Source: Escherichia phage vB_EcoM-Ro157c2YLVW. Taken from it: a DNA stretch of 64,000 nucleotides. Below are positions 39,199 through 46,680 of this stretch, piece after piece (position 1 is the stretch's first letter; each line of letters begins with the position of its first letter). The stretch lies in sequence record NC_050153.1; one strand, written 5' to 3'. The notes beneath the pieces were generated by a model, which was not told the origin of the DNA, made no database searches, and was given only the letters and a program-made list of their open reading frames with translations. The position numbers were made by a program, and so were the translations under genes.

Positions 39199-39215
39199 AT
39201 TGCTCTAATAAATAT
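39199..39215 (+). promoter_or_regulatory. repressor operator-like site (ATTGCTCTAATAAATAT)
   Basis: 16/17 match to the recurring motif, upstream of the uhr-rdgC-dmt operon. Confidence 0.55.
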
Positions 39216-39286
39216 TGTTTTTTATGTCGTATTTTCGGTACCATTCAGCCATCGCCCTTCAATGGGCATTTGTTTGGAGTCGTCAG

Positions 39287-39571
39287 ATGCAGATGGAGCT
39301 AATAAGCCGCAAAGAGTTCGATAGCCGTGTAACCAGCGGTGAACTCGACAACTTGCAGGCTATCAAGGTGAAAGAAGGCTTTTGCCTCATTGGGAATCAG
39401 AGCGGAATAAATCGCGTTTTTATGCTTCGCCGTACGGATTTGAAGCCATTTGTCTGGAAGAACGAAATTGGTCCCAGCTCATACGCTCAAACGAGGGGGT
39501 GCCACAACCTGGCCTTTTTCTACAAAGACGAGCTTTCTGTGGTTGATATTCAAGGGTTACAACATGTTTAA
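39287..39571 (+). CDS. small protein upstream of the rdgC homologue
   Basis: Start MQMELIS with GGAG RBS; stop overlaps the rdgC start (ATGTTTAA). Confidence 0.5.
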
Positions 39572-40469
39572 GCACTGGAAAAACATTACTATTTATAAAC
39601 TTTCTCGTGAGGCGGATCTGACCGACTTAGAAGATAAAAAGAAAATGATCCTTTTCACGCCATGCGGTAGTCAGGATATGGCCAAGTTCGGTTTTGTATC
39701 GCCATTTGGTGATAATTCTGAAGTTATCGCTATGCATGGAAATGGTTTTATCCTTGTTGAAGCAAAGCGCGAAACAAAAATTCTTCCCCCGCCGGTTATC
39801 CAGCGAGCTATTCAAGAAAAAATTGAAAAACTTGAGCAAGAACAAGCGCGTAAACTGAAGAAAACAGAGAAGGACTCCCTGAAAGACGAAGTTCTGCATT
39901 CTCTTCTGCCACGGGCTTTTTCAAAGTTTTCTGTTATCCAGGCGATCTACGACGGTTCAACTAAACGTATCTATATCAATGCCAGCGCGCGGCAGGCAGA
40001 GGATATGCTCGCGCTTATGCGTAAGTCTCTGGGTTCTCTTCCTGCTGTTCCCCTGAGTGTTGAAAATCCCATTGAATTAACGCTGACCGACTGGGTACGT
40101 GATGGTAGTGCTCCACAGGGATTTCAAATGGGGGATGCGGCAGAACTTAAGGCAGTGCTTGAGGATGGCGGTATTGCCCGAGTGAAAAAGCAGGATTTGG
40201 GAAGCGATGAAATTTCCACACACCTGGAAGCTGGCAAGCTCGTCACTAAGTTGGCACTCGACTGGCAGAACCGCATTAAATTTACACTGGACCATAACTT
40301 CAGCCTTACCAGCGTCAAATTTGCGGATGAATTGCTTGAGCAGAACTCTGATATTGATAGTGAAGATGTTGCGCAGCGACTGGACGCAGATTTCTTCCTG
40401 TTGACCAGTGAAATTTCGTGCCTGGTTGATGCTCTGGTAAATGCCCTTGGCGGAGAGGCTAAGCAGTGA
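39564..40469 (+). CDS. rdgC: recombination-associated protein RdgC homologue
   Basis: N-terminus and most of the length near-collinear with E. coli RdgC as recalled (...[11 protein letters not shown]...RKSLGSLP...[10 protein letters not shown]...DLRQNEDID...); start at internal ATG 39564 (track ORF 39450 over-extended). Confidence 0.8.
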
Positions 40470-43400
40470 AAGAGCTGTGCTATGGATCTGTTTGCAGTGG
40501 AATTGAAGCCGCGAGTATTGCCTGGGAACCGTTGGGTATGCGTCCGGCGTGGTTTGCTGAAATCGAGCCTTTTCCATCGGCCGTTCTTGCGCTCCGCTGG
40601 CCCCATGTTGCCAACCTTGGCGACATGAAAAAACTTGCCAAAAAAGTCTTGGCTGGGGAAATCGAATCCCCTGACGTGCTCGTCGGGGGAACACCATGTT
40701 TTACCGCGGGGCATATGGTTCTTTGTAAAAATGGCTATAAACCAATAGAAAATGTTTGCCCTGGTGATTACGTAGTCAGTCATCTCGGGCGGTTACAACA
40801 AGTAAAAAGAGTTGGTTCAAAAATAGCTAATACGGGGTTACTTAATGCCGTTGGGCAGCCTTTAGGTATAAGAACAACCAATGACCATCCCTTCCTGGCT
40901 GTTCGGTGGAAAGCCCAAAACACCCGGAAAAATGGCACATATTTTAAGAGAGAGTTGTTGTCTGAACCGGAATGGCGAGCAGCATGTGATATGCCGGGAT
41001 ATCAATGGTGCGCTCTAACTAATTTCAATATTGCATTTCCAGATATTTGTTCTCGGTTCTTGTCTGAAGAACAGGCTATGTATCTTGCGGGCGCTTATGT
41101 TGGCGATGGATATATTAGGAGATGGAGAGGTAAATCTAAGAAGGCGGTTGTTTTTGGCATAAATTGCCAGAAATTGAGAAAGTTTCATTGCCGCATACCA
41201 GAAAACATATTTTCCGTGGCAAGCGAAATCCGAGGGAGCATCAAAGTAACCTTGAATGATACGTGTTATGCCAATTGGCTTAATGAACATTTTGGCGAGT
41301 TAAGCCATGCTAAGCGTATCCCTGCATGGGTGATGTCGCATCCATTGCGTCATGTGTTTTTACAAGGCTATCTTGATACTGATGGGACACCAAGTGGTAA
41401 AGCGGGATTTAGAATTAATAGTGTTAGTTCTGCGCTTGCTTGGGGCGTTGCGGGGTTGTCACAGACTTGTGGTTATGTTTCTTCGGTCAGCTTTATTGAA
41501 GTTGAGCCCAAAAAAGTGATCGAGGATCGCGTGGTAAATCAACGGAATTATTATCAGGTAACAATCTGCCCGCAGAAATTGTCACGTAAATCAAGATTGG
41601 CTCATGGAATGCTTTTACGAACAGTCAAAGAGTTTAAATCGGTAGGCCTAGATACTGTATACAACATAGAAGTCGAAGGTGATCATTCCTATATCCTCAA
41701 TGGTGCGGTGGTCCATAACTGTCAGGCATTCAGTATCGCGGGATTACGTGGTGGGCTTGATGATGAGCGTGGCGCGCTAACTTTAAAGTATGTGGAGCTT
41801 GCAAATGCAATTGACGACAAACGGGCTGAGTCATTTCTCAAACCAGCCGTTATCGTCTGGGAAAATGTCCCAGGAGTCTTGTCATCGGCAGATAACGCCT
41901 TCGGATGTTTCCTTGCCGGATTGGCTGGAGAAGATGTGCCATTTGAACCAGGTGATCGACCTGAATCAGGAAAAAGCAACGCGTTCTGGCGGTGGGATGG
42001 CAAAACCGGTTGCCATGTTCCAAAGTGGCCGCAGTGTGGTTGTATTTATGGACCGCAGCGAAAAGTGGCCTGGAGAATCCTTGATGCCCAATACTTCGGA
42101 GTGGCACAACGACGCCGACGCGTGTTTGTTGTCGCAAGTGCTCGAACAGATCTCGATCCCGCAACGGTACTTTTTGAGTTCGAAGGCGTGCGCCGGAATA
42201 TTGCGCCGAGCCGAAAAAAGAAGGAAATCGCTTCCGCCATTATTGCAAATGGCGCTGCAATCAGTGGCGAAAGCCTAAATCCATGCCTACACGCTGACAT
42301 GCCACCCGGTATGAAATCGACGAAAGCCGTAAACGCTTTCAGGATGGCAGCATTTGGGGAATATATTGACGATGAAACCGCATCGACAGTAAAGGCAAGA
42401 GATTTTAAAGATGCCACTGACCTTGCCGTTTTTAGCAGCACAGGAGCAGGTTTTTGGTCAGAAGGGCATGGTACATTGCGGGCACGTGAGCAAGAAAGCC
42501 ATGAGCATCTTGTTACATTGGCTTTTCCTGAGCGTATGAGCGGTACACAACATGCTGCAACTAAGAATACTTCACCATCTCTAATGGCTAAAAATCCAAC
42601 AGCTGTTTGCTATGAAGTAAGAAACGCAGAAGTAGCTGTCCGCCGTCTTACCCCTGTCGAATGTGAAAGGCTGCAAGGTTTTCCTGAGGGGCATACGTTG
42701 ATCCCGACGGAAAAGCGTAAAAAAGTTTCTTCAGATGAACTGGCATACCTTCGCAATCACTATCCAGATTTAAGCGAAGAAGAGGCCGCGATGCTTGCAG
42801 CTGACGGACCGCGTTACAAAGCGATCGGCAATAGTATGGCAATACCAGTAATGCGCTGGATTGGCGATCGGATTACTAAGGCCGTATGTCGGCAGAAAGA
42901 AGGAAGTGAAACAAAAGAGCGAAAAGTTAAACCAGCGGCAGAATTCGAACGGTCCATATTCAAATGGGCTGGTGGAAAATTTGGTGTTCTGGAACAAATC
43001 TTTCGCTATTTGCCAGAAGGGAAGCGCCTGATTGAACCTTTCGTTGGTGGCGGAGCTGTCTTCATGAATGCCGGATACCAGGAAAATCTGCTAAATGATG
43101 TGAATGCTGACCTGATTAACTTTTACAAGACTCTGCAACGCGAGGCGCATTCACTTATCACTCTGGCACATCGTTTCTTCCAGGACTACAACACACAGGA
43201 AGGATACCTGGCAGTACGGAATGCGTTTAACAAACAAGTCTATGATGATTTACATCGCGCAGCGGCGTTTTTGTTCCTGAACCGACATTGTTTTAACGGA
43301 TTGACGCGTTACAACCAGGCCGGTGAGTTCAATGTCGGTTATGGGAAGTATAAAACTCCGTATTTCCCATTACAGGAGATGGAAGCCTTCCTCGGTGCGG

Positions 43401-43753
43401 AAGGGCGGTCTGAGTTTGTATGCGGTGATTTTGCAGCGGTGATTGAAGCTGCCGGAGAAGGAGATGTCATCTTTTGCGATCCGCCGTATGAACCGCTTCC
43501 AAATACAGAGGGATTCACGAACTATTCCGGTCATGACTTTAAGTTTGAAGAGCAAAAACGCCTGGTGTCTCTGTTGACGGATGCTCATCGTCGAGGTGCA
43601 AAGGTTCTCATTACTAACAGTGGCGCGCCAAACATCAGAGAGCTTTATCATGACAGTGGCTTCAGAGTGGAACCTCTTTTTGCCAGACGTTCTGTGTCTT
43701 GTAAGGGGGACACTCGAGGTGTAGCTCATGACGTTTTGGGTATATTGCTCTAA
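40466..43753 (+). CDS. dmt: bifunctional DNA methyltransferase: N-terminal C5-cytosine MTase (intein-interrupted) fused to C-terminal Dam-like N6-adenine MTase
   Basis: C5 motifs: motif IV GGTP|CQAFS (split by intein), ENV (VIVWENVPG), [13 protein letters not shown]; Dam domain from ~42945 with KWAGGK and DPPY motifs. Confidence 0.85.
40697..41719 (+). mobile_element. intein (341 aa) with LAGLIDADG homing-endonuclease domain, inserted at the catalytic Cys of the C5-MTase
   Basis: Begins with Cys (CFTAGHMV...), block [17 protein letters not shown] motifs [11 protein letters not shown] and [11 protein letters not shown], terminal ...NGAVVHN followed by Cys+1; excision restores GGTPCQAFS. Confidence 0.85.
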
Positions 43754-43760
43754 TAAATTT
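43744..43760 (+). promoter_or_regulatory. repressor operator (perfect ATTGCTCTAATAAATTT) overlapping the dmt stop codon
   Basis: Perfect 17-mer; downstream TGTAAT -10-like hexamer; heads the tRNA-plp-ban operon. Confidence 0.6.
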
Positions 43761-44425
43761 ATTAGTGTAATATCACCTCAATGAATCGTGATTTATAGAG
43801 CGATTTAGCTGTTAGCCGCGACAGGCGCGGCGGTAAGCATGGCTGGGCCTAGTCCTCCCAGACAAACCACCGAGTTGCCAGGTTGACCATGCGCCTAAGT
43901 GGCAACGCCGAAGTGCGTTACGAGCGTCCAGTTTGCCCATCTTCGGGTGGGCGTTTTTTTCAGGGTTTTCGTCATGGTTAGCGACTTTGCGGCGGTTTAG
44001 AAACTGACCATTAAAGTAAATGCAAACGATGATCTGATGATGGTAGCGGCCTAAGAAGCCAGATGCCATGGGGTATGAGTCGTCCCCCGTCAAAAAATCG
44101 ACCGCAGAGTGTCCCCGTCTGTGTATTAGGGAACGGGGAGGCACAACAGGTAAGGGCGCTGGTGTGATTAACCAGATGAACGAGAAGGGGCCATCTGTTG
44201 GTCAGCGTCCTTTCCTGTTGCGTTTTCTTTTCAGCGTAACAGCGGTGCTTAACAGCACTTTGGGTACAGTTCCACGAATTTACGGGTATATCCCGTCATG
44301 CTGAAGGCGCTAATCACGCTGGAAGCCAGGGTTATGCATCCCCTGTTACCGAATTGCAGCCAGGGCGCGGTGCGCCGAAAAGCATACGGAGGTGGAAGCC
44401 CTCGCCGGAGACGTACCCGGCAAGT

Positions 44426-44500
44426 GATGGTGTAGCTCAGCGGTAGAGCAGTTGGCTGTTAACCAACTGGTCGGTAGTTCGAATCCACCCACCATCGCCA
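44426..44500 (+). tRNA. tRNA-Asn (anticodon GTT)
   Basis: Cloverleaf: acceptor GATGGTG/CACCATC, D-arm GCTCAGCGGTAGAGC, anticodon loop CTGTTAA, T-loop TTCGAAT, encoded CCA. Confidence 0.75.
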
Positions 44501-44505
44501 CTTTA

Positions 44506-44592
44506 GGGGAGTTAGTCCGTAGGGGTAGCGGGGTAGACTGTAAATCTACTGTCATTGCGACTCGGGTGGTTCGACTCCATCACTCCCCACCA
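44506..44592 (+). tRNA. class II tRNA-like gene with GTA anticodon (tRNA-Tyr-like), atypical D-arm
   Basis: Acceptor GGGGAGT/ACTCCCC, anticodon stem-loop GTAGA-CTGTAAA-TCTAC, long variable arm hairpin, T-loop TTCGACT, encoded CCA; D-stem only 3 bp with 4-nt spacer. Confidence 0.55.
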
Positions 44593-44596
44593 CATT

Positions 44597-44672
44597 GCCG
44601 ATTTAGCTCAGTTGGTAGAGCAGTCGCTTTGTAAGCGAATGGTCAGCGGTTCGATCCCGTTAATCGGCACCA
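44597..44672 (+). tRNA. tRNA-Thr (anticodon TGT)
   Basis: Acceptor GCCGATT/AATCGGC, D-arm GCTCAGTTGGTAGAGC, anticodon loop TTTGTAA, T-loop TTCGATC, encoded CCA. Confidence 0.75.
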
Positions 44673-46604: not shown

Positions 46605-46680
46605 GGCCCTTTAGCTCAGTGGTTAGAGCTGGCGACTCATAATCGCACGGTCACCGGTTCAAGTCCGGTAGGGGCCACCA
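46605..46680 (+). tRNA. tRNA with CAT anticodon, Ile2 (lysidine)-type by resemblance to E. coli ileX; elongator Met not excluded
   Basis: Acceptor GGCCCTT/AGGGGCC, D-arm GCTCAGTGGTTAGAGC, anticodon arm GGCGACTCATAATCGC, T-loop TTCAAGT, encoded CCA. Confidence 0.7.

What the first reader, a model, noticed from the sequence alone, without database searches (positions are those of the whole stretch)
40466..43753. Single-polypeptide fusion of Dcm-like and Dam-like methyltransferases under repressor control
One ORF carries a complete C5-MTase motif set ([14 protein letters not shown]) followed by a Dam-like domain (KWAGGK, DPPY). It sits in an operon headed by a repressor operator (39199-39215) together with an RdgC homologue. 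A broad-specificity self-methylating enzyme is a classic anti-restriction strategy for a promiscuous phage-plasmid.
Basis: partly seen in the sequence, partly recalled or inferred. Interest (0 to 1): 0.4.

Follow-up and report, generated by a model that had tools for sequence, protein, structure and literature searches.

The report
Intein-interrupted P1 Dmt methyltransferase gene

Summary
The ORF at 40466-43753 is real and is the P1 gene dmt. Its C5-MTase and Dam domains, the C1 operator Odmt/Op68 at 39199-39215, and the upstream RdgC-family gene hrdC are all as annotated for phage P1, so the fusion itself is already known.

The extra 341 aa (nt 40697-41719) form a canonical class-1 intein with a LAGLIDADG homing endonuclease. 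It sits exactly between Pro77 and the catalytic Cys of motif IV (GGTP|C…HN|CQAFS).
- All splicing residues and both LAGLIDADG Asp-Gly pairs are present.
- The AF2 model (pLDDT 91) matches PI-SceI and related intein endonucleases.
- The site is polymorphic: occupied in 129 of 492 PLSDB plasmids, 152 of 493 dmt-bearing complete E. coli genomes and 16 of 88 sampled alleles.
- It occurs on two dmt backbones. All 17 copies are intact. It is linked to private synonymous flank variants, as co-conversion would produce.
- Related inteins occupy the same motif IV site in more than 130 C5-MTase clusters across bacteria.

So C5 activity requires protein splicing, while the Dam domain probably does not.

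Separately, the target-recognition region is modular, with 1-5 TL-type modules and 3 in this allele. This hints at multispecificity. Anti-restriction remains unproven.

The parts
39199..39215 (+). C1 repressor operator Odmt (former Op68), ATTGCTCTAATAAATAT
   Evidence: Identical to the annotated P1 operator
39215..39244 (+). Sigma-70 promoter Pdmt (-35 TTGTTT 39215-39220, -10 TACCAT 39239-39244)
   Evidence: Identical to the annotated P1 Pdmt
39287..39571 (+). uhr, first gene of the operon, 94 aa, function unknown
   Evidence: Positional and sequence equivalent of P1 uhr. No Pfam or NCBIfam hit
39564..40469 (+). hrdC, RdgC-family protein, 301 aa. Its stop overlaps the dmt start codon
   Evidence: Pfam RdgC E 1.4e-97. 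P1 annotation
40466..43753 (+). dmt precursor ORF, 1095 aa, 121.7 kDa
40466..40696 (+). N-extein, aa 1-77: C5-MTase motif I (VCSGIEAAS) up to GGTP of motif IV
   Evidence: Alignment with P1 Dmt. Pfam
40697..41719 (+). Intein, 341 aa, 38.3 kDa. Cys1 (CFTAGH), block B TNDH (nt 40877-40888), block [13 protein letters not shown] (41657-41692), block G VVHN (41708-41719)
   Evidence: Exact in-frame insertion relative to P1. Pfam and NCBIfam hits. AF2 pLDDT 91 and Foldseek to PI-SceI E 2e-17. Residues conserved across homologs
41084..41110 (+). LAGLIDADG motif 1 (LAGAYVGDG; catalytic Asp = intein D137)
   Evidence: D137 and G138 invariant in alignment A4. Pfam LAGLIDADG_3
41360..41386 (+). LAGLIDADG motif 2 (LQGYLDTDG; intein D229)
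   Evidence: D229 and G230 conserved in at least 90% of sequences in A4
41720..41722 (+). +1 Cys (Cys419): C-extein nucleophile for splicing and catalytic Cys of the PCQ motif IV
   Evidence: Aligns with the PCQ Cys of M.HhaI. Invariant in homologs
41720..42895 (+). C-extein part of the C5-MTase domain: motif [38 protein letters not shown]
42128..42640 (+). Variable, modular target-recognition region (186-aa class counting its motif VIII and IX anchors), with three TL-type motifs (STVKAR, GTLRAR, PSLMAK)
   Evidence: alignment A5
42953..43753 (+). Dam-type (D12 class) N6-adenine MTase domain (KWAGGK, FVGGGAV, DPPY)
   Evidence: Pfam E 2.1e-56. NCBIfam dam E 7e-74
43744..43771 (.). Divalent C1 operator Oban a/b (former Op72ab), overlapping the dmt stop codon. 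Controls the downstream tRNA/ban transcription unit
   Evidence: Identical to the P1 annotation

Best explanation
This is the dmt gene of a P1-family phage-plasmid. It is transcribed from Pdmt when the C1 repressor leaves Odmt, that is, on infection or induction, together with uhr and hrdC.

Its product is a 121.7-kDa precursor. The C5-cytosine MTase domain is interrupted at the catalytic Pro-Cys of motif IV by a class-1 intein that contains a LAGLIDADG homing endonuclease.

Inferred splicing mechanism:
- Cys78 (intein residue 1) undergoes an N-S acyl shift.
- The N-extein is transferred to Cys419 (+1), which is also the MTase nucleophile.
- Asn418 cyclises and releases the intein.
- An S-N shift restores GGTP-CQAFS.

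The products are the 754-aa (83.4 kDa) bifunctional Dmt and a free 38.3-kDa endonuclease. C5 methylation therefore depends on splicing. The separate C-terminal Dam domain probably works with or without it.

The freed endonuclease is inferred to cut intein-less dmt alleles of co-resident or co-infecting P1-like genomes at the motif IV sequence. Repair from the occupied allele then copies in the intein together with adjacent flank markers (homing).

Shown here: the anatomy, residue conservation, predicted fold, population polymorphism and linked flank haplotypes. Inferred: splicing, DNA cleavage and homing.
For: Insertion and junction:
- Clean 341-aa in-frame insertion relative to P1, JL22, P7 and SJ46 Dmt. 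Removing it restores [12 protein letters not shown].
- The +1 Cys aligns with the PCQ Cys of M.HhaI.

Splicing and endonuclease features:
- Cys1, TNDH, block F, HN and +1 Cys are present, and C1, T, H, N and C+1 are invariant in homologs of 29-56% identity.
- Both LAGLIDADG Asp-Gly pairs are conserved.
- Pfam LAGLIDADG_3 and NCBIfam intein_Cterm score above their cut-offs.
- The AF2 model has pLDDT 91 and pTM 0.88. Its top PDB matches are PI-SceI, the TliVMA intein, PI-PfuI and PI-PkoII, then I-DmoI and I-SceI.

Same site elsewhere:
- 134 of 168 retrieved relatives have the same P|C…N|CQxFS junction.
- 10 of 10 closest hosts are PF00145 proteins that resume at model position 71.
- The same site is occupied in many phyla.

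Population evidence:
- Occupied in 129 of 492 plasmids, 152 of 493 E. coli genomes and 16 of 88 sampled alleles.
- Present on both the 754-aa and the 672-aa backbone.
- 17 of 17 copies are intact and exactly 1023 nt.
- Position -1 is A in 16 of 16 occupied alleles and in 0 of 72 empty ones. A second occupied haplotype carries private synonymous changes at -16, -13, -10 and -7.
- 21 of 39 window-versus-P1 differences lie within -120..+160 of the junction.

Operon and operator are identical to P1.
Against: - No experiment shows splicing or cleavage.
- Pfam Hint_2 (28.1 bits against a cut-off of 28.4) and Intein_splicing (17.7 against 35.8) fall below their gathering scores.
- Syn:nonsyn counts among P1-family inteins are about 1:1, based on very few substitutions. 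This only weakly indicates purifying selection on the endonuclease.
- The flank haplotype pattern could also come from ordinary homologous recombination among P1-like plasmids plus shared ancestry. The alleles are not phylogenetically independent.
- Occupancy of only about 18-31% means the element has not swept. That could reflect an inactive endonuclease or limited co-infection.
Confidence: 0.8

Rival explanations
1. One reading: a plain, uninterrupted fusion of a Dcm-like and a Dam-like methyltransferase, whose main role is broad-spectrum self-methylation to escape host restriction.
For: Both MTase domains are real. The operon is under C1 control, so it is expressed early in lytic growth. 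The target-recognition region is modular, with 1-5 TL-type modules among alleles and 3 here. That fits multispecific protection and diversifying selection.
Against: The polypeptide is not an uninterrupted fusion, because motif IV is split by the intein. The documented function of P1 Dam activity is pac-site methylation for packaging (PMC12707154). The C5 specificity is unknown, and the P1 annotation itself says only 'perhaps' C5 methylation. Nothing ties the enzyme to CCWGG (Dcm).
Confidence: 0.3
2. Domesticated or decaying intein. The element still splices, or is merely tolerated, but its endonuclease is inactive. It then persists only by vertical descent and general recombination among P1-like plasmids, not by homing.
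For: Occupancy is intermediate (18-31%) rather than near fixation. Nonsynonymous changes are as frequent as synonymous ones among the few substitutions seen. The nearest intein outside the P1 family is only 57% identical, so there is no sign of recent cross-family transfer.
Against: Both LAGLIDADG catalytic Asp-Gly pairs and the full endonuclease domain are conserved over homologs down to about 30% identity. All 17 copies are full length, with no mini-intein or deletion derivatives. The intein occurs on two different dmt backbones and with at least two flank haplotypes.
Confidence: 0.3
3. Non-splicing insertion. The C5 domain is permanently disrupted, and the protein serves only as a Dam methylase with a dead N-terminal part.
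For: The Dam domain is an independent C-terminal fold and is the only activity documented for P1 Dmt. One intein-bearing allele (L144) has a premature stop at codon 62. A Mannheimia relative keeps the intein but has lost its C-extein. Loss of the C5 function therefore seems tolerable in some lineages.
Against: Every residue needed for the four splicing steps is present and invariant in homologs. All C5 motifs (I, IV, VI, VIII, IX, X) remain intact in the exteins. 12 of the 13 intein-bearing alleles checked keep the complete reading frame.
Confidence: 0.07

Closest known systems
Phage P1 Dmt (AAQ14041, bifunctional DNA methyltransferase; Łobocka et al. P1 genome annotation AF234172)
   Same: Same locus and operon: Odmt/Op68, Pdmt, uhr, hrdC, dmt, then Oban. 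The exteins are about 98% identical. Same C5-MTase plus Dam architecture, and the same 754-aa backbone after removal of the intein.
   Different: The P1 reference has no intein, and it carries G74W next to the PCQ motif. This allele is 341 aa longer and must be spliced to rebuild motif IV.
LAGLIDADG intein-endonucleases such as PI-SceI (VMA1 intein), TliVMA, PI-PfuI and PI-PkoII
   Same: Hint splicing domain with a LAGLIDADG endonuclease domain inserted in it. Cys1, TxxH, terminal HN and +1 Cys are present. The insertion lies at a catalytic-site residue of a conserved enzyme. These are the best structural matches.
   Different: Only 11-17% sequence identity. The host protein is a DNA C5-methyltransferase rather than an ATPase, polymerase or RNR. 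At 341 aa it is smaller than PI-SceI (454 aa), and I did not analyse whether it has a separate DNA-recognition region.
Inteins in actinobacteriophage DNA methylases (Genes 2023, PMC9957025; ShiLan domain paper PMC11855218)
   Same: A LAGLIDADG-type intein with patchy distribution in a phage methylase gene family, with evidence for transfer between divergent methylase alleles.
   Different: A different phage group. I did not establish which methylase family that is, or how its insertion site relates to this one; the paper never uses the word 'cytosine'. Here the site is the PCQ catalytic cysteine of a C5-MTase in an enterobacterial phage-plasmid.
Multispecific C5-MTases of Bacillus phages (SPR, phi3T, rho11s, H2; recalled from memory, not tested here)
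   Same: A single C5-MTase core with several tandem target-recognising modules between motifs VIII and IX. Alleles differ by gain or loss of modules.
   Different: No sequence comparison with those enzymes was possible with these tools. The specificities of the Dmt modules are unknown. Dmt additionally carries a Dam domain and, here, an intein.

Membership tests
Intein (class 1, Hint fold) | In-frame insertion absent from orthologs, whose removal restores a contiguous conserved host motif | tested here: met
   aa 78-418 are absent from P1, JL22, P7, MH422554 and SJ46 Dmt. Removal restores GGTPCQAFS
Intein (class 1, Hint fold) | N-terminal Cys/Ser (block A) and block B TxxH | tested here: met
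   Cys78 and T138-N-D-H141. C, T and H are invariant in alignment A2
Intein (class 1, Hint fold) | C-terminal His-Asn (block G) followed by a +1 Cys/Ser/Thr | tested here: met
   VVHN418 | C419. N and C are invariant. NCBIfam intein_Cterm scores 28.8 bits against a cut-off of 15.6
Intein (class 1, Hint fold) | Hint (horseshoe beta) fold | tested here: met
   AF2 pLDDT 91. Foldseek hits to PI-SceI, TliVMA, PI-PfuI and mini-inteins. Pfam Hint_2 is only marginal (28.1 against 28.4)
Intein (class 1, Hint fold) | Autocatalytic protein splicing | not testable with these tools
   Needs expression followed by SDS-PAGE or mass spectrometry
LAGLIDADG homing endonuclease | Two LAGLIDADG motifs, each ending in an acidic residue plus Gly, in an alpha-beta-beta-alpha-beta-beta-alpha pseudo-dimer | tested here: met
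   LAGAYVGDG and [10 protein letters not shown]137/G138 are invariant and D229/G230 at least 90% conserved. Pfam LAGLIDADG_3 above cut-off. Foldseek hits to I-DmoI and I-SceI
LAGLIDADG homing endonuclease | Site-specific cleavage of the intein-less allele, and homing | tested here: inconclusive
   Consistent population signals: polymorphic occupancy, two backbones, strictly linked flank variants, and mismatches clustered at the junction. Ordinary recombination is not excluded, and no biochemical test was possible
P1 Dmt orthologue | Synteny (Odmt-Pdmt-uhr-hrdC-dmt-Oban) and high identity to P1 Dmt | tested here: met
   39 mismatches in 2265 nt after removing the intein
C5-cytosine DNA methyltransferase (PF00145) | Motifs I, IV (PCQ), VI (ENV), VIII (QRR), IX and X | tested here: met
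   All are present in the exteins. Motif IV is contiguous only after splicing
E. coli Dcm (CCWGG-specific) equivalog | Close sequence relationship to, and the specificity of, Dcm | tested here: not met
   Only a superfamily-level NCBIfam dcm hit, below its cut-off (95.1 against 100.65). The closest solved relatives are M.HhaI and M.HaeIII at E about 1e-8. Specificity is untested
Dam family (D12 class) N6-adenine MTase | D12-class fold with the DPPY catalytic motif and an AdoMet-binding motif | tested here: met
   PF02086 E 2.1e-56. TIGR00571 scores 248.8 bits against a cut-off of 114.85. DPPY lies at aa 1005-1008
Multispecific phage C5-MTase | Several tandem target-recognising domains, each conferring one specificity | tested here: inconclusive
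   Presence or absence of whole blocks among five length classes, with 1-5 TL-type motifs. The motif was defined after seeing the sequences. No methylation data

The most novel reading that the evidence does not exclude
The intein may be more than a passenger. Its +1 nucleophile is the MTase's own catalytic cysteine, and the gene is switched on only at lytic derepression. Splicing could therefore act as a post-translational timer or switch, for example one sensitive to redox state through Cys1/Cys+1. The precursor would supply Dam activity immediately, while m5C activity and a DNA endonuclease would be released later. At the same time, the element would be an actively homing intein circulating among natural E. 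coli and Salmonella phage-plasmids, giving a tractable model for intein homing in the classical P1 system.
Probability: 0.12. Interest if true: 0.6.

Novelty: new member of a known kind. Interest (0 to 1): 0.4.

Why it matters
- The Dmt fusion itself is textbook P1 biology. The intein, however, changes how this gene must be read, because annotation pipelines call the 1095-aa product simply 'Dam family methyltransferase'.
- C5 activity cannot be inferred without splicing. Any experiment on 'P1' Dmt depends on which allele a strain carries: one record named P1 (OP279344) has the intein, while the reference genome does not.
- A naturally occurring, intact intein with a homing endonuclease, found in about 3% of complete E. 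coli genomes and on a genetically tractable phage, would be a convenient system for studying intein homing, co-conversion and conditional splicing.
- The endonuclease is a candidate new rare-cutting enzyme.
- The modular recognition region suggests that P1-family phages vary their cytosine-methylation repertoire. This bears on restriction evasion by phage-plasmids that spread resistance genes.

Tried and rejected
Literature:
- Ten full-text searches combined intein with P1, Dmt, RCS47, Punavirus, phage-plasmid, C5 or cytosine methyltransferase, and catalytic cysteine. None found a description of an intein in P1-family dmt or at motif IV of C5-MTases. One search failed because a term was too short.
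- The P1 genome paper (PMC523184) is not held, so I used its GenBank annotation instead.
- The 77-genome P1-like comparison (PMC9603915) does not mention dmt.

Sequence search against PDB: a sequence-only search with the intein gave only weak hits (E 0.0015 to a DnaX mini-intein). The fold search was needed.

Readings considered and rejected:
- A group I or II intron, or an IS element. The insert is in frame with no stops, has Hint and LAGLIDADG domains, and shows no target duplication beyond the shared TGT codon.
- A recent donor outside the P1 family. The nearest intein is 57% identical, and intein divergence is no smaller than extein divergence.

Caveats on my own tests:
- dN/dS within the P1 family rests on too few substitutions to be decisive.
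- The regex test for TL motifs was designed after seeing the sequences, so its p-values are only indicative.
Full report
**1. The observation**

The window is a P1-family phage-plasmid. A 5-kb query around the finding matches Escherichia phage RCS47 over 100% of its length at 98.9% identity. It matches the P1 reference over only 80%, in two pieces.

The ORF at 40466-43753 (+) exists exactly as reported, with a GTG start and 1095 aa.
- Pfam finds a C5-cytosine methylase (PF00145, E 3.9e-29) and a D12-class N6-adenine methylase (PF02086, E 2.1e-56, aa 834-1066).
- NCBIfam finds the dam family above its cut-off.
- The 17-nt sequence at 39199-39215, ATTGCTCTAATAAATAT, is identical to the annotated monovalent C1 operator Odmt (former Op68) of P1. 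The Pdmt -35 and -10 hexamers follow it.
- The operon is uhr (39287-39571), hrdC (39564-40469; Pfam RdgC, E 1.4e-97) and dmt. The stop and start codons overlap.
- The divalent ban operator overlaps the dmt stop codon.

It is also the known anatomy of P1 dmt. The authors of the P1 genome annotate it as a [quoted passage not shown].

**2. What was missed**

P1 Dmt has 754 aa, and this ORF has 1095. Alignment with P1, RCS47 and a second "P1" isolate shows one clean 341-aa insertion at aa 78-418 (nt 40697-41719). It lies between GGTP and CQAFSIAG. That sequence is motif IV, and its Cys aligns with the PCQ Cys of M.HhaI.

The insert has every hallmark of an intein:
- It begins with Cys (CFTAGH) and contains block B TNDH.
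- It has two LAGLIDADG motifs, LAGAYVGDG and LQGYLDTDG.
- It has block F ([12 protein letters not shown]), ends in VVHN, and is followed by Cys.
- Pfam reports LAGLIDADG_3 above its cut-off. Hint_2 is just under its cut-off, and Intein_splicing gives a sub-threshold match.
- NCBIfam reports the intein C-terminal splicing region above its cut-off.
- An AlphaFold2 model built on an 11-sequence alignment is confident (pLDDT 91, pTM 0.88).
- Its best PDB matches are PI-SceI (E 2e-17), the endonuclease-containing TliVMA and PhoVMA inteins, PI-PfuI and PI-PkoII. Free LAGLIDADG enzymes such as I-DmoI and I-SceI come next, and some mini-inteins also match.

This is a canonical class-1 intein with a nested LAGLIDADG homing endonuclease, inserted at the catalytic cysteine of the C5-MTase.

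**3. Relatives of the intein**

A word-indexed search found homologs of 46-53% identity inside other C5-MTases. All sit at the identical junction. Cys1, T..H, the first LAGLIDADG Asp-Gly, the terminal Asn and the +1 Cys are invariant.

An exhaustive HMMER search found 4287 cluster representatives at E ≤ 1e-3 and 186 at E ≤ 1e-30.
Most of the rest are fragments of the same arrangement.
- The ten closest hosts are all PF00145 proteins whose C-extein resumes at model position 71. One of them, P0022, is another C5+Dam fusion.
- In species-representative genomes, the same site is occupied in Clostridia, Chloroflexota, Mesorhizobium, Neisseria, Gracilibacteria, Spirochaetaceae and a Desulfurococcales archaeon.
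- More distant relatives sit at other cysteine-preceded sites. By their flanking residues these look like RNR and IMPDH active sites, which is my reading and was not tested.

For relatives outside the P1 family, intein identity (at most 57%) is no higher than extein identity. There is thus no sign of a recent foreign donor.

**4. Population genetics in the P1 family**

Occupancy of the site:
- The intein DNA is in 129 PLSDB plasmids, while the adjacent C-extein segment is in 492.
- It is in 152 of the 493 complete E. coli genomes that carry dmt, and those 493 are out of 5426 genomes in all.

I then compared 88 dmt alleles drawn from GenBank phages, two genome contigs and 80 IMG/VR contigs.
- 16 carry the insertion, always 1023 nt, and 72 do not.
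- Without the intein, backbones come in many sizes: 609, 672, 715, 754, 759, 767, 807 and 862 aa. The intein occurs on both the 754-aa and the 672-aa backbone.
- All 17 intein copies examined are intact. There are 10 distinct sequences, 98.9-100% identical, and synonymous and nonsynonymous changes are about equally frequent.
- 12 of the 13 intein-bearing alleles checked keep the full reading frame. One has a stop at codon 62.

The flanks are informative.
- The base immediately 5' of the insertion (third position of the Pro77 codon) is A in 16 of 16 occupied alleles. It is T in 71 empty alleles and G in the remaining, divergent one.
- A second occupied haplotype has private synonymous changes at -16, -13, -10 and -7 that no empty allele carries.
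- 21 of the 39 differences between the spliced window gene and P1 dmt fall within -120..+160 of the junction.

This is what co-conversion during homing would produce. General recombination plus shared ancestry could give a similar picture, so I rate active homing as likely but unproven.

**5. Mechanism**

Shown here: the gene is under C1 control, as in P1, and the precursor carries an interrupted motif IV.

Inferred from established intein chemistry:
- N-S acyl shift at Cys78.
- Trans-thioesterification to Cys419.
- Asn418 cyclisation.
- S-N shift.

The products are the 83.4-kDa Dmt and a 38.3-kDa endonuclease (masses). The +1 nucleophile is the MTase's catalytic cysteine, so the precursor cannot methylate cytosine. 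The Dam domain is a separate C-terminal fold and probably works in the precursor as well.

This may explain why the intein is tolerated. The documented essential role of Dmt is GATC methylation of pac in dam- hosts (PMC12707154), and that role does not depend on splicing.

Expression only after derepression places the endonuclease in the cell when phage genomes replicate and recombine. That is the opportunity for homing.

**6.

"Dcm-like" holds only at superfamily level. "Broad-specificity anti-restriction" has not been demonstrated.

I did find that the segment between motif VIII and motif IX is modular. Five length classes (104, 142, 186, 239 and 294 aa) are built from shared blocks that are present or absent as units. 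Each block carries a TL-type motif (PTLTCN, PTLNQS, STVKAR, GTLRAR, PSLMAK, PTLRAG, FTLDSR). From memory, these resemble the recognition-loop TL motif of M.HhaI. The window allele has three.

This resembles the multispecific C5-MTases of Bacillus phages, again recalled from memory and not tested. It gives partial anatomical support to the idea of a multi-target enzyme. The motif was defined after seeing the sequences, so this is a lead rather than a result.

**7. Comparison with what is known, and novelty**

- The fusion, the operator and the RdgC-family neighbour are already known.
- LAGLIDADG inteins at catalytic residues are a well-known kind.
- Inteins in an actinophage methylase family have been described (PMC9957025).
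- I found no description of an intein in P1-family dmt or at the PCQ motif of C5-MTases in ten full-text searches. The library is incomplete, however, and automated annotations already label some relatives "Hint domain-containing" or "DOD-type homing endonuclease".

I therefore file it as a new member of a known kind.

**8. Verdict**

The finding as written is ordinary. The intein and the modular recognition region raise it to moderate interest (0.4).

Noticed in passing
window 42128-42640 (dmt aa 555-725); compare L003, L005, L007 and IMG/VR loci L088-L167: The region between C5-MTase motifs VIII and IX is modular among P1-family alleles. Length classes of 104, 142, 186, 239 and 294 aa are built from shared blocks, each with a TL-type motif, giving 1-5 putative target-recognition modules. 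The window allele has three. This suggests multispecific cytosine methylation and module shuffling.
   Followed up: partly
L001 (AF234172, P1 reference) dmt codon 74: The P1 reference strain carries GGG->TGG (G74W) four residues before the catalytic Cys of the PCQ motif. This haplotype was seen once among 72 empty alleles. It might impair C5 activity in the sequenced laboratory P1.
   Followed up: no
L003 (OP279344, 'Escherichia phage P1 isolate del res del mod'): A record named P1 carries the intein on a 672-aa-type dmt backbone (1013 aa in total). The P1 reference does not, so laboratory or field 'P1' strains differ at this locus.
   Followed up: partly
P0010 (Mannheimia haemolytica, seen on 578 contigs): The homologous intein (47% identity) is intact, but the C-extein is replaced just after 'CQ' by a short unrelated tail. 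This looks like a dead methyltransferase that still keeps a full-length intein.
   Followed up: no
L043, L045, L053, L064, L077 (flanks …QLSA|C…HN|CF/CY…) and L074 (…GPGSI|C…HN|CTTRIVAGVG): More distant relatives of this intein, in archaeal and bacterial MAGs, sit at cysteines in genes whose flanking residues look like RNR and IMPDH active sites. The host genes were judged from the flanking residues only and were not tested.
   Followed up: no
window 44426-44672 and 46605-46680: tRNA-Asn, tRNA-Tyr and tRNA-Thr are clustered downstream of dmt, with tRNA-Met(cat) before ban. The P1 and RCS47 annotations list only Asn and Thr at the first spot, so this element has an extra tRNA-Tyr.
   Followed up: no
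L144 (IMGVR_UViG_2721755710_000007): An intein-bearing dmt allele has a premature stop at codon 62 of the N-extein, while its intein reading frame is intact.
   Followed up: no
NZ_CP007394.1 (E. coli ST2747 chromosome) 2166446-2167468, and 4 other chromosomal places: Five intein copies and 11 dmt copies lie on chromosomes rather than plasmids in complete E. coli genomes. They may be integrated P1-like elements or assembly joins.
   Followed up: no
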